A stretch of DNA of 5,365 nt from a virus (lineage: Duplodnaviria > Heunggongvirae > Uroviricota > Caudoviricetes): IMG/VR virus record IMGVR_UViG_2602041568_000011. One strand, given 5' to 3'. A program made the position numbers and the translations under genes. Within the stretch, counting starts at the first letter, position 1. Each line of letters opens with the position of its first letter. Below the pieces are notes generated by a model that searched no databases, was not told where the DNA came from, and saw only the letters and a list, made by a program, of their open reading frames with translations. Positions 3,917 through 5,290 of this stretch are shown in pieces.

Positions 3917-4093
3917 ATCCTGATGTTAAACCTAAAATGCAATCCCTTATCTTCAACTGCAAGCCACAGAACTATCATGCTCAGCGTCGCCAGTAGGCGA
4001 CCTACCAGCACTGGCCCTGAGTTACATACTAAATATAATCAGGAAAATATTGCGACAGAGGAATTCATTACCAGGGCAGGTATCCAGTAAAGC

Positions 4094-4151
4094 ATTATGT
4101 CGGCATTAGTGAAGCGATACGTTAGCATCGCTTCACTAATGCCGACATAAT
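4094..4151. repeat. Perfect 25-bp inverted repeat (ATTATGTCGGCATTAGTGAAGCGAT / ATCGCTTCACTAATGCCGACATAAT) around an 8-nt loop ACGTTAGC
   Basis: Exact reverse-complement arms seen directly. It lies in the AT-rich spacer between the methyltransferase 3' end and the nin genes. There is no flanking U-tract on either strand. Confidence 0.9.
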
Positions 4152-4316
4152 TAGCGAGTAGGCATAGAGGTGATCTCATTAATTTTCTTGAATAAATCAT
4201 TAGGCCACAAAACTCTATGCCTCTCTTACTTGCCCTCCTGGTACCGGAAACTACTTAGAATCAGTGCAGGTTATTTGAATAATTAACATGGGCTTATATA
4301 TGAAAAAAATAAAAAT

Positions 4317-4709
4317 TTAGGGGTATGATTGCAGAACTGTAATACCTTCTTTCAACTGTTCAAAATTCTTAAACTTTCTGAGCCTTTCTCTACATAGATC
4401 TCTGGACTTACCATTATCATCTTTATGAATGAATATAATATTCACATCATAACTTAACTTTCCATACATTGGGCCAGGGCAGGCAAGAAAATTATCATGT
4501 CGATATCTGTTACCAACAAACCAATACCCCTCATATCCCAACATGGATAAGAAGTCTACAACATCATCTGTAACTTTCTTATTAACAGCCTCACAGAATA
4601 TTGCTGGCTTGTTATTTTTAATTGTATTCACAGCACCACGCATACAATTGATTTCATATCCTTCAACATCTATTTTGATGAAATCAATTTTTATCCCTAC
4701 AGACTCCAT
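4317..4709 (-). CDS. C-terminal half of an FkbM-family (Methyltransf_21) methyltransferase; out of frame with the N-terminal half in this sequence
   Basis: Contains the FkbM signature IDFIKIDVEGYE. The frame stays open upstream through the repeat tract (…PAQQCIDIITIDAF-MESV…). AT-rich codon usage unlike the flanking phage genes. Confidence 0.8.
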   Translation of the reverse strand: MESVGIKIDFIKIDVEGYEINCMRGAVNTIKNNKPAIFCEAVNKKVTDDVVDFLSMLGYEGYWFVGNRYRHDNFLACPGPMYGKLSYDVNIIFIHKDDNGKSRDLCRERLRKFKNFEQLKEGITVLQSYP

Positions 4710-4717
4710 AAATGCAT

Positions 4718-5203
4718 CTATGGTAATAATATCAATACACTGCTGGGCTGGGCTGGGCTGGGCTGGGCTGGGCTGGGCTGGGCATCATAGCACCCTTCAT
4801 TATTATAACCATTTTCTATAGAAAATGAACCGTAATTCCAGGGTTTATCGTATGAAGATACAGGAATTATAATATCCCCGCAAATATCACCAACAGCTTT
4901 GTTATATGGCATAACATTCAATACGTTATTTATAGCCAGATTTCCACACAACATATTAAATATTGGTGGCTGAGGTTCAAAACATATTACCTTTCCATTT
5001 CTACATATTTTTGATAATGGTATTGTATGCAAGCCTATATTTGCACCAATCTCTAAAACATTGCTGCCTTCTGATAATAATGTTTTGTATAAGTCGACCT
5101 CAACTTCACACCATTCGCCATAATTTGAGGCATAGTTAGAGATCATATCGCCCCGGAGTAAAATAAAACTTCCCCATCTTAACTCTTTAATATACGTTCT
5201 CAT
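4718..5203 (-). CDS. N-terminal half of the FkbM-family methyltransferase, reading through the repeat tract into a frameshifted tail
   Basis: Contains the SAM-binding-type motif VLEIGANIG followed by ICFEP. ATG at 5203 with AAGGA SD. The protein ends ...YDAQPSPAQPSPAQPSSVLILLP*, where everything after the tract is out-of-frame sequence. Confidence 0.8.
   Translation of the reverse strand: MRTYIKELRWGSFILLRGDMISNYASNYGEWCEVEVDLYKTLLSEGSNVLEIGANIGLHTIPLSKICRNGKVICFEPQPPIFNMLCGNLAINNVLNVMPYNKAVGDICGDIIIPVSSYDKPWNYGSFSIENGYNNEGCYDAQPSPAQPSPAQPSSVLILLP
4742..4783. repeat. Pentanucleotide simple-sequence repeat, (GCTGG)8 + GC on the plus strand, which is (GCCCA)n on the coding strand
   Basis: Eight perfect tandem 5-nt units seen directly. 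It sits exactly at the junction of the two methyltransferase half-ORFs and translates as AQPSP repeats with no stop codon in any frame. Confidence 0.95.
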
Positions 5204-5290
5204 TCGCTAATCCTTATCTATATTAAAATTACTTATATAACGTCTTACTGAAGTGGGTTAAGTGCGGGTGCGTTGAGGATGCCTGACACA

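What the first reader, a model, noticed from the sequence alone, without database searches (positions are those of the whole stretch)
3917..5260. AT-rich cargo island embedded between GC-normal prophage segments
From about 3920 to 5260 the sequence is visibly far more A+T-rich than the nin/Q/lysis genes on one side and the last 100 bp of the window on the other. The island holds only the split methyltransferase, the 25-bp palindrome and a short 9-bp inverted repeat pair (4161-4169 / 4213-4221). The composition shift and the position between the nin genes and whatever lies beyond the window are typical of a moron or horizontally acquired cargo.
Basis: partly seen in the sequence, partly recalled or inferred. 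Interest (0 to 1): 0.45.

Follow-up and report, generated by a model that had tools for sequence, protein, structure and literature searches.

The report
Switchable methyltransferase cargo in a prophage
The AT-rich stretch is real, rare foreign cargo in an E. coli lambda-like prophage: a dead insertion-sequence scrap plus a methyltransferase gene that a hypervariable 5-base repeat shifts in and out of frame (out of frame here), much like the known prophage gene neuO.

Summary
The composition shift is real. GC is 37% over 3700-5249, against 50% to the left and 56% in the hokD end to the right.

Related Qin/PPompW-type prophages lose homology at 3699-3763 and regain it at 5250. They carry other cassettes in that slot: rem, a 130-aa ORF, or HsdM/HsdS. 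Only 5 of 5,426 complete E. coli genomes carry this methyltransferase. The "acquired cargo" reading is therefore supported.

The island has two parts.
- **IS remnant (4079-4255):** the dead 5' end of an IS10-like (IS4-family) element. It contains both the 25-bp palindrome and the 10-bp inverted repeat.
- **Methyltransferase gene (4317-5203, minus strand, 33.5% GC):** an FkbM-family gene split by a perfect (CCAGC)8 tract.

The split is not decay. Six loci with zero substitutions in the flanking 548-850 bp compared carry 3, 8, 10, 12, 17 and 27 units. Full-length alleles exist (N=4 and N=10). A second allele, 80-85% identical, keeps the tract at the same codon. dN/dS between the two alleles is 0.06-0.075 on both sides of the tract.

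This is a prophage-borne contingency (phase-variable) gene, OFF in this window. Its closest precedent is neuO of prophage CUS-3. The substrate is unknown; a surface glycan is my inference. Switching within a clone was not tested.

The parts
3700..5249 (.). Variable cargo slot ('island'). It replaces the 448-bp rem cassette of common Qin/PPompW-type prophages. GC is about 37%.
   Evidence: Homology to M00057 and PPompW stops at 3699 and resumes at 5250. Against phage 689R5 it stops at 3763 and resumes at 5250.
3696..3721 (.). Conserved 26-mer (GCAGCAGGTGCCAGTTGTTCAGGCTG) just upstream of the first nin-region ORF. It is shared by prophages with different neighbours on both sides, so it is a likely recombination boundary sequence. 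Function unknown.
   Evidence: 92% match to TUM9812, which has a different downstream gene (DUF1367). Aligned in four contexts.
3722..4078 (.). Left, non-coding-looking part of the island. 3722-3875 is shared at about 76% with the E7-1N7 cassette and 3772-3833 at 84% with A10. 3876-4078 has no detectable relatives outside the island-bearing strains.
   Evidence: Small ORFs here have no Pfam hits. No Rfam match.
4079..4255 (-). Dead remnant of the outside end of an IS10-like (IS4-family) insertion sequence. It comprises the upstream leader plus the first 28 codons of the transposase, with 4 stop codons (ATG at 4165-4163).
   Evidence: About 75% DNA identity to 'IS4 family transposase' pseudogenes in about 640 E. 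coli genomes. The 168-aa relative matches plasmid DNA in 3,410 records, several of them annotated IS4 family transposase. tblastn shows MPTR*LCRH**SDANVSLH*CRHNALLD.
4094..4151 (.). Perfect palindrome with 25-nt arms and an 8-nt spacer, inside the IS remnant. Relatives carry only an imperfect (quasi-)palindrome here.
   Evidence: dG -47.5 kcal/mol, z = -12. No T-run follows it on either strand, so it is not a canonical terminator.
4160..4222 (-). 10-bp inverted repeat (4160-4169 / 4213-4222), conserved in the IS relatives. It pairs the transposase start codon with upstream leader sequence, so it is a probable start-codon-sequestering hairpin of the IS. It is now a relic.
   Evidence: The columns are invariant in alignment A1. 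Fold of -24.6 kcal/mol, z = -3.2. The function is inferred from what I recall of IS10 fold-back inhibition.
4317..5203 (-). FkbM-family SAM-dependent methyltransferase gene, frameshifted (OFF). The N-terminal ORF 4718-5203 (161 aa) ends 8 codons after the repeat. ORF 4317-4709 is the out-of-frame C-terminal half.
   Evidence: ORFs. PF05050 scores 58.1 bits (cut-off 22.7) and TIGR01444 scores 95.6 bits (cut-off 37.7) on the in-frame allele. The coding sequence is identical to E9 WP_001261471.1 apart from repeat number.
4742..4781 (-). Perfect pentanucleotide repeat, (GCTGG)8 on the + strand and (CCAGC)8 on the coding strand. This is the frame switch. In this allele the gene is in frame when N = 1 mod 3, and it then encodes a (PAQPS)n loop.
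   Evidence: TRF gives 8.4 copies at 100% match.
5204..5249 (-). AT-rich leader of the methyltransferase (23.9% GC), with a Shine-Dalgarno AAGGA at 5215-5211, 7 nt before the ATG. No consensus sigma-70 promoter.
   Evidence: Sequence. GC. Promoter scan. Only the start codon and SD are conserved between the two alleles.
5250..5365 (-). hokD (Hok/Gef toxin) module. The 3' untranslated region is 5250-5327 and the last codons of the CDS are 5328-5365. This is the conserved right flank of the slot.
   Evidence: 97-99% identity to hokD loci in thousands of E. coli genomes. PGAP annotation of E9 and VTB97432v.

Best explanation
The AT-rich block is a horizontally acquired cassette. It sits in a recombination-prone cargo slot of a Qin/PPompW-type lambdoid prophage, between the hokD toxin module and the first nin-region ORF. 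It has two parts.

(1) 4079-4255 is an inert scrap of an IS10-like element. It explains the palindrome and the 10-bp inverted repeat, which are relics of the IS end and not functional parts of the cargo.

(2) 4317-5203 is an FkbM-family SAM-dependent methyltransferase gene. Its reading frame is set by a hypermutable (CCAGC)n tract in the middle of the gene.

Proposed mechanism:
- Slipped-strand mispairing during replication adds or removes 5-nt units.
- With N = 1 mod 3 the full enzyme is made. Its length is 283 + 5(N-1)/3 aa, and the repeat is read as a PAQPS loop on the surface.
- With any other N, translation stops 3-8 codons after the tract. The product then lacks the C-terminal half, which holds five of the eight invariant residues.
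- In this window N = 8, so the gene is OFF.

The gene therefore behaves as a mobile contingency (phase-variable) locus carried by a temperate phage.

What is shown: acquisition, family membership, hypervariability of the tract, the existence of ON and OFF alleles, and purifying selection on both halves.

What is inferred: that switching is fast and reversible within a clone; that transcription comes from a weak local promoter or from read-through from hokD or the phage early-right operon; and that the substrate is a cell-surface glycan (LPS/O-antigen, capsule or flagellar glycan), so that switching changes antigenicity or phage receptors.
For: Cargo:
- GC and GC3 drop.
- Present in 4 + 1 of 5,426 complete E. 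coli genomes.
- Alternative cassettes occupy the same slot.
- The right junction is identical within about 10 nt in all contexts.

Family:
- PF05050 and TIGR01444 score above their cut-offs.
- The AF2 model has pLDDT 94.3 and its top PDB match is FkbM 2py6.
- Invariant residues are G53, G57, E76, K170, D172, E174, E177 and E198.

Switch:
- The tract is perfect.
- Six type-A loci show 0 substitutions in the 548-850 bp of coding sequence compared around the tract, yet carry N = 3, 8, 10, 12, 17 and 27.
- Protein records add N = 4, 6 and 9, plus many type-B lengths.
- Only the alleles predicted to be in frame are annotated or recorded as full length: N = 4 gives 288 aa, N = 10 gives 298 aa; type B N = 3 gives 286 aa and N = 6 gives 291 aa.
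- The diverged type-B allele keeps the tract at the same codon, with N = 34 in TUM9812.
- dN/dS between types A and B is 0.061 upstream and 0.075 downstream of the tract.
- The repeat-encoded residues fall in a coil (133-145) with the lowest pLDDT of the model, so variable length should be tolerated.

Precedents:
- neuO, with a heptanucleotide repeat, in prophage CUS-3.
- A (G)12 tract in an FkbM-family gene of H. influenzae 86-028NP.
Against: - No within-culture switching data. All evidence is between isolates.
- No consensus promoter lies upstream on the coding strand and there is no terminator. The leader is not conserved between the two alleles beyond the SD and ATG. Expression in the lysogen is therefore unproven.
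- The substrate cannot be assigned. Homologues at 39-45% identity sit in heterogeneous contexts: one lies next to a Wzy_C-domain protein and a GT4 glycosyltransferase, one is in a TPR/GT41/sulfotransferase cluster, and four have no informative neighbours.
- Fold search gives only generic class I methyltransferases.
- Most observed alleles are OFF. A gene on its way out would also look like this, although the dN/dS values argue against that.
Confidence: 0.8

Rival explanations
1. A decaying pseudogene. The methyltransferase is a dead passenger in a defective prophage, and the repeat is an incidental low-complexity stretch that happened to frameshift it.
For: The window copy is frameshifted. Four of the five complete genomes with the gene are also out of frame. 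The neighbouring IS fragment is clearly dead.
Against: - There are no other lesions: both halves are intact in every copy examined, with 0 substitutions among six type-A loci.
- Full-length alleles occur at several repeat lengths in both allele types.
- The part downstream of the tract has dN/dS = 0.075 across a divergence with dS above 1.
- The tract is perfect and conserved in position in alleles only 80% identical.
Confidence: 0.07
2. A nucleic-acid methyltransferase. The enzyme methylates DNA or RNA (anti-restriction, defence, or a 'phasevarion'-type epigenetic switch) and not a glycan or small molecule.
For: Weak sub-threshold matches to TRM5/TYW2 (E = 1.4e-5, 25.5 bits against a cut-off of 28) and Taw2. 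MJ1557/TYW2 appears in PDB searches. A weak PADLOC hit to mad2 of a methylation-associated defence system (E = 4.6e-4). The same slot holds HsdM/HsdS in E7-1N7.
Against: All of these matches cover only residues about 42-106, which is the generic SAM-binding Rossmann half. The full-domain match is to the FkbM family, whose characterised members act on sugars or polyketides (my own knowledge). There is no target-recognition domain and no partner gene in the cassette.
Confidence: 0.1
3. Not acquired. The segment is an ancestral part of this phage lineage, its low GC reflects local constraint, and relatives have lost it.
For: All cassettes in this slot are somewhat GC-poor (40-44%), so the slot itself may favour AT-rich DNA.
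Against: The methyltransferase is far lower (33.5% GC, GC3 about 0.29). It is present in about 0.1% of complete E. coli genomes. It sits next to an IS scar. Its nearest homologues outside the two E. coli alleles are only about 45% identical, mostly unnamed metagenome sequences, and the few named ones further down are Betaproteobacteria and Phenylobacterium at 31-39%.
Confidence: 0.03
4. Repeat-length differences are sequencing or assembly artefacts.
For: Long tracts break short-read assemblies: many 'partial' proteins end at the tract. Long-read consensus can miscount repeats.
Against: Lengths range from 15 to 170 bp across independent complete genomes, IMG/VR and metagenome contigs, far beyond consensus error. 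Dozens of distinct protein lengths come from independent submissions. Annotated in-frame or out-of-frame status matches the arithmetic in every case.
Confidence: 0.02

Closest known systems
neuO, the polysialic-acid O-acetyltransferase of prophage CUS-3 in E. coli K1 ('mobile contingency locus'; Deszo et al. 2005, as cited in PMC13001214 and PMC3046976)
   Same: - It is a cargo gene of a temperate E. coli phage.
- A perfect tandem repeat whose unit is not a multiple of 3 lies inside the coding region.
- One repeat-number class in three gives full-length protein.
- Three units are translated into a variable-length peptide (RLKTQDS there, PAQPS here).
- Wide repeat-number ranges occur among isolates (3-53 or 2-93 there, 3-34 here).
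- Most sequenced copies are OFF.
   Different: - The enzyme class differs: a left-handed beta-helix acetyltransferase there, a Rossmann-fold FkbM methyltransferase here.
- The unit is 7 nt there and 5 nt here.
- The tract sits 2 nt after the start codon in neuO but at codon 142 of about 283, in an internal loop, here.
- The phage type and position differ (here, the hokD-nin slot of a Qin-type lambdoid).
- The substrate, the phenotype and the actual switching are known for neuO and untested here.
SSR-controlled LPS/LOS and capsule modification genes of Haemophilus, Neisseria and Campylobacter. This includes the (G)12 tract in the FkbM-family gene ntHI0694 of H. influenzae 86-028NP (PMC2651432).
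   Same: A hypermutable repeat inside a sugar-modifying-type enzyme gene. There is precedent for an FkbM-family gene carrying such a tract, and pentanucleotide units are known (hsdM and the hmg locus in H. influenzae).
   Different: Those loci are chromosomal, in small-genome host-restricted pathogens rich in SSRs. Here the host is E. coli/Shigella, and the locus rides on a prophage.
Vibrio cholerae WbeT (RfbT), the O1-antigen methyltransferase
   Same: It is a distant relative: PF05575 matches weakly (E = 0.019, below the cut-off) and also hits several homologues. From my own knowledge, loss or restoration of WbeT by mutation switches the Ogawa and Inaba serotypes. That makes it a functional analogy for on/off O-antigen methylation.
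   Different: There is no SSR in wbeT. It is chromosomal, within the O-antigen cluster. The sequence relationship is only at superfamily level.
Lambdoid phage morons and the rem cassette of Qin/PPompW prophages
   Same: It occupies the same slot as rem. It is present or absent between otherwise collinear phages, and its composition deviates.
   Different: No recognisable own promoter or terminator. It is accompanied by an IS scar and carries a contingency repeat.
IS10 / IS4-family insertion sequences
   Same: 4079-4255 is homologous to the outside end and the first codons of an IS10-like transposase gene.
   Different: Only about 177 bp remain, with four in-frame stops, no second end and no DDE domain. 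The element is not mobile.

Membership tests
FkbM-family methyltransferase (Pfam PF05050 / TIGR01444) | Profile match above the curated cut-off | tested here: met
   PF05050 scores 58.1 bits (cut-off 22.7) over residues 51-227. TIGR01444 scores 95.6 bits (cut-off 37.7). Both are on the in-frame allele, which is identical to the window outside the repeat.
FkbM-family methyltransferase (Pfam PF05050 / TIGR01444) | Class I Rossmann fold with a glycine-rich SAM-binding motif I and an acidic residue after strand 2 | tested here: met
   E51-I-G-A-N-I-G57 and E76 are invariant or nearly so in 50 homologues. The AF2 model has pLDDT 94.3. The best PDB match is FkbM 2py6.
FkbM-family methyltransferase (Pfam PF05050 / TIGR01444) | SAM-dependent methyl transfer to a defined acceptor | not testable with these tools
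   No biochemical data. The genomic context of homologues is heterogeneous.
SSR-mediated contingency (phase-variable) locus | Perfect tandem repeat, with a unit that is not a multiple of 3, inside the ORF | tested here: met
   (CCAGC)8 at 100% match, at codon 142.
SSR-mediated contingency (phase-variable) locus | Repeat number varies among otherwise identical or near-identical copies | tested here: met
   0 substitutions in the 548-850 bp compared between six loci, with N = 3, 8, 10, 12, 17 and 27. Further alleles come from protein records.
SSR-mediated contingency (phase-variable) locus | Both in-frame (full-length) and out-of-frame alleles occur, and premature stops follow closely in the off frames | tested here: met
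   ON: N = 4 and 10 (type A), N = 3 and 6 (type B). OFF frames end ...AVY* or ...SSVLILLP*.
SSR-mediated contingency (phase-variable) locus | The gene is kept functional (purifying selection downstream of the tract) | tested here: met
   dN/dS is 0.075 for 140 codons downstream and 0.061 upstream, type A against type B.
SSR-mediated contingency (phase-variable) locus | High-frequency, reversible switching within a clonal population, with a phenotype | not testable with these tools
   This needs read-level or fragment-length data from single colonies and a phenotype assay.
Phage moron (strict sense) | Present or absent between otherwise related phages, with deviating composition | tested here: met
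Phage moron (strict sense) | Own promoter and terminator flanking the gene | tested here: inconclusive
   The consensus scan finds no sigma-70-like site upstream on the minus strand and no intrinsic terminator. By eye there is only an 8/12 match (TTAACC-16-TATATA). The scan is crude.
Phage moron (strict sense) | Expressed from the repressed prophage | not testable with these tools
   No transcript data.
Active IS4-family insertion sequence (for 4079-4255) | Intact DDE transposase ORF and two terminal inverted repeats | tested here: not met
   Only 28 codons remain, with 4 stops. Homology covers one end only. It is a remnant, not a member.

The most novel reading that the evidence does not exclude
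A second 'mobile contingency locus' in E. coli/Shigella after neuO. Under this reading a temperate phage carries a sugar O-methyltransferase whose expression flips stochastically through a pentanucleotide repeat. Lysogens would then continuously generate methylated and unmethylated surface-glycan variants (LPS, capsule or flagellar glycan), hedging against phages, antibodies or serum. From my own knowledge, 5-nt loops escape E. coli mismatch repair. That would explain why this unit size gives a fast switch in a mismatch-repair-proficient species that otherwise has very few repeat-based switches.
Probability: 0.35. Interest if true: 0.7.

Novelty: new member of a known kind. Interest (0 to 1): 0.55.

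Why it matters
Repeat-driven phase variation is a hallmark of Haemophilus, Neisseria, Campylobacter and Helicobacter, but is considered rare in E. coli, where neuO is the textbook case. A second, unrelated prophage-borne example would have three consequences.

1. Temperate phages would be seen to spread ready-made stochastic switches between E. coli strains, not just fixed conversion genes.
2. There would be a simple experimental system (E9 is ON; VTB97432v, E41 and tcmA_3 are OFF) for measuring pentanucleotide slippage in a mismatch-repair-proficient enteric bacterium.
3. It would flag a possible unrecognised methyl modification of a surface structure in livestock-associated E. coli. Four of the five carrying complete genomes come from chickens or pigs.

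For annotation, it shows that the paired 'FkbM family methyltransferase' fragments in RefSeq are one switchable gene and not two genes or a pseudogene.

I found no description of this locus in the searchable literature. That library covers open-access papers only.

Tried and rejected
- **Rfam** at permissive threshold over the whole window: only the four tRNAs and sub-threshold isrJ/isrK-like hits near Q, and nothing in the island.
- **Promoter/terminator scan** of 3600-5365: nine promoter-like sites against 6.6 expected, none upstream of the methyltransferase on its strand, and zero terminators. I therefore dropped the idea that the palindrome is the gene's terminator, because no T-run follows it.
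- **Pfam** on the small ORFs at 3602-4200: no hits. Pfam on the IS4 N-terminal fragments: no hits. tblastn against plasmids was needed to confirm a transposase.
- **Genomic context of six 39-45% homologues**, to infer the substrate: heterogeneous, so no assignment.
- **Foldseek against PDB**: generic class I methyltransferases only.
- **PADLOC**: only a weak mad2 hit on the SAM-binding segment.
- **PDB sequence search**: weak hits only.
- **Metagenome scan** for the repeat junction: one short contig (type B, N = 4).
- **Genome-wide scan for (GCTGG)6**: mostly high-GC Actinomycetes and Proteobacteria unrelated to this gene. It says nothing about the donor.
- **Chi site**: the repeat shares GCTGG with Chi (GCTGGTGG) but never contains the full octamer. 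Rejected by inspection.
- **Naming correction**: I first called the 89-aa ORF at 3406-3675 'rem'. Comparison with M00057 and PPompW showed that rem is a different gene, which the island replaces.
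Full report
**1. What the window is**

All genes read on the minus strand. From right to left they are:
- the hokD toxin module (5250-5365; CDS from 5328)
- the AT-rich block
- an 89-aa phage ORF (3406-3675, phrog_1212)
- ydfU/DUF968 (2355-3404)
- rusA (1983-2342)
- Q (1297-1992)
- tRNA-Met, -Lys, -Thr and -Gly (793-1102)
- holin S (285-500)

This is the early-right/nin/Q/lysis segment of a Qin/PPompW-type lambdoid prophage of E. coli/Shigella. The exact 161-aa truncated product of the window is on record from Shigella sonnei.

**2. 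The observation**

| Interval | GC |
|---|---|
| 3764-5249 | 37.3% |
| 1-3763 | 50.3% |
| 5250-5365 | 56.0% |

All figures are; the difference gives p about 1e-17.
- Third-position GC of the methyltransferase is 0.28-0.31, against 0.44-0.60 in the phage genes.
- The 25-nt-arm palindrome (4094-4151) and an inverted repeat (10 bp, 4160-4169 / 4213-4222) are present.
- The right edge is exact.
- The left edge at 3917 is not a homology breakpoint. Depending on the relative, homology ends at 3699, 3721, 3763 or 3875.

**3. Presence or absence**

Of 5,426 complete E. coli genomes, 4,542 match some part of the 3800-5365 query, in nearly all cases only the hokD end.
- Only four carry the island: E9, VTB97432v, tcmA_3 and E41, from poultry and pigs.
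- One more, TUM9812, carries a diverged allele.

In the common arrangement (M00057, PPompW) the slot holds the 87-aa rem gene in a 448-bp cassette. Other relatives hold something else:
- Phage vB_EcoS-689R5 has a 130-aa phrog_16082 ORF there.
- E7-1N7 has HsdM/HsdS, a hypothetical gene and the same IS scrap.

All contexts converge within about 10 nt at the right junction, just past the hok 3' UTR. On the left they share a 26-mer (3696-3721) ahead of the first nin-region ORF, whatever that ORF is.

**4. The left part is an IS scar**

- 4079-4255 is about 75% identical to sequences annotated as IS4-family transposase pseudogenes in about 640 E. coli genomes.
- The 168-aa fragment from strain M18 matches plasmid DNA in 3,410 records, several of them annotated IS4 family transposase. 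By my own recollection of the IS10 transposase sequence, it resembles IS10.
- In the window only 28 codons remain, with four stops.
- The 10-bp inverted repeat is invariant in the relatives and pairs the old start codon with its leader. I read it as the IS's own translational-occlusion hairpin, by analogy with IS10. This is inference.
- The palindrome lies inside the first 24 codons. Relatives have only a quasi-palindrome there.
- Counting by eye from alignment A1, the window's right arm is about 64% identical to the relatives and the left arm about 80%. That pattern is what templated 'quasi-palindrome correction' would produce. This too is inference.
- No T-run follows the palindrome, so it is not a canonical terminator.

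**5. The right part is a switchable methyltransferase gene**

- With two more repeat units, as in E9, the two ORFs fuse into a 298-aa protein.
- That protein is an FkbM-family methyltransferase. The structure model is confident (pLDDT 94.3), and FkbM 2py6 is the top PDB match.
- The split lies exactly at a perfect (CCAGC)8 tract.

Repeat number varies while the flanking sequence does not:

| Locus | Repeat units (N) |
|---|---|
| tcmA_3 | 3 |
| window | 8 |
| E9 | 10 |
| E41 | 12 |
| VTB97432v | 17 |
| IMG/VR prophage contig (L007) | 27 |

These six type-A loci show no substitution at all in the 548-850 bp of coding sequence compared around the tract (850 bp for five of them; contig L007 holds only 123 bp on the C-terminal side).
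- Protein records add N = 4, 6 and 9.
- The frame rule is N = 1 mod 3 for type A. It correctly predicts every full-length record (N = 4 gives 288 aa, N = 10 gives 298 aa) and every truncated one.
- The type-B allele is 80-85% identical. It has one base fewer in the flank, so its rule is N = 0 mod 3. Its ON alleles are N = 3 and 6, and its OFF alleles include N = 4 and N = 34.
- One IMG/VR allele (L029) has N = 6 plus an 11-nt deletion of the adjacent flank, which restores the frame.

**6. It is not decay**

- Between types A and B, dS is about 0.9-2. dN/dS is 0.061 upstream and 0.075 downstream of the tract.
- The downstream half holds five of the eight invariant residues of the family: K170, D172, E174, E177 and E198.
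- That half is translated only in the ON state, yet it is strongly conserved.
- The repeat-encoded PAQPS residues fall in a coil (133-145) with the lowest confidence of the model, so a loop of variable length should be tolerated.
- Homologues at about 45% identity have no repeat at this position.

**7. How it most likely works**

- Slipped-strand mispairing changes N in steps of 5 nt.
- One frame in three gives enzyme. The other two stop 3-8 codons after the tract.
- The window is OFF, with N = 8.
- From my own knowledge, 5-nt loops are poorly recognised by E. coli MutS, which would make such a tract unstable even in repair-proficient cells.
- Transcription is unresolved. The Shine-Dalgarno sequence and ATG are conserved between the alleles, but the 45-nt leader is not, and no consensus promoter or terminator is found. 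Read-through from hokD or from the early-right operon is plausible.
- The substrate is unknown. The family's characterised members methylate sugars or polyketides, and a weak RfbT (WbeT) signal is present. I therefore favour a surface glycan, at roughly 40-50%.

**8. Comparison with what is known**

- The closest system is neuO of prophage CUS-3. It is a phage cargo gene with a 7-nt repeat in the coding region, ON at multiples of three, translated into heptads, with 3-53 or 2-93 copies among isolates and about two thirds of complete genomes OFF.
- The locus here differs in enzyme family, repeat unit, position in the gene and phage slot.
- An FkbM-family gene with a (G)12 tract is noted in H. 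influenzae 86-028NP.
- I found no paper describing this E. coli locus. Only open-access text was searched.

**9. Verdict**

- The palindrome and the inverted repeat are relics of an IS end.
- The 'split' methyltransferase is a probable phase-variable gene carried by the prophage: a new member of a known kind.
- Interest is moderate, at 0.55. The island as such is ordinary. The contingency locus is uncommon for E. coli and directly testable.

Noticed in passing
window 4094-4151, compared with L009 2792-2850 and L010 2516-2575: The palindrome is perfect only in the island-bearing strains. IS relatives carry an imperfect version. By my own count from alignment A1, the window's right arm is about 64% identical to the relatives and the left arm about 80%. 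This looks like a quasi-palindrome 'corrected' by intrastrand template switching.
   Followed up: partly
window 3696-3721: A 26-mer (GCAGCAGGTGCCAGTTGTTCAGGCTG) is conserved upstream of the first nin-region ORF in prophages whose flanking genes differ on both sides (the 89-aa ORF here, DUF1367 elsewhere). It is possibly a mosaic boundary or recombination sequence, or a regulatory site. It is unexplained.
   Followed up: partly
L019 (E. coli E7-1N7) 1220-5461: The same hokD-nin slot carries HsdM and HsdS (no HsdR seen), a hypothetical gene and the same IS10-like scrap. The slot therefore collects defence or modification cargo, and the IS scar is older than the present cargo.
   Followed up: partly
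L029 (IMGVR_UViG_2602041579_000011) 4732-4761: This methyltransferase allele has N = 6 plus an 11-nt deletion of the flank next to the tract (AGTGTATTGAT on the coding strand). Together they keep the frame open and remove residues QCID. It is a different way of resetting the switch.
   Followed up: partly
P0005 (protein record, type-B allele): This allele reads ...DASPAMQCID..., which suggests a point change inside a minimal tract. It may be a 'locked-ON' variant that has lost the repeat.
   Followed up: no
L101 (Xenorhabdus hominickii) 6006-6050; L096 (Citrobacter sp. NCU1) 4-43: The same (CCAGC)n unit, at 9 and 8 copies, occurs in AT-rich phage- or satellite-like contexts of other Enterobacterales. 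Neither is in a methyltransferase homologue. In Xenorhabdus it lies in or near a 70-aa ORF. These may be further switches.
   Followed up: partly
window 793-1102: Four tRNA genes (Met-CAT, Lys-TTT, Thr-TGT, Gly-TCC) lie between Q and the holin. Related phages carry different subsets (Met/Thr/Gly, Arg/Lys/Met, Ile/Lys), so the tRNA array is also mosaic.
   Followed up: no
window 1208-1281 (minus strand): Sub-threshold Rfam matches to isrK (22.7 bits against 50) and isrJ (24.5 bits against 37) lie immediately downstream of Q, where a pR'-proximal short transcript would be expected. They are probably weak similarity only.
   Followed up: no
window 3406-3675: The 89-aa ORF next to ydfU is annotated 'toxin to Rem' in one phage record and 'hypothetical' elsewhere. 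The true rem gene, present in common relatives, is absent from this window because the island replaces it.
   Followed up: yes
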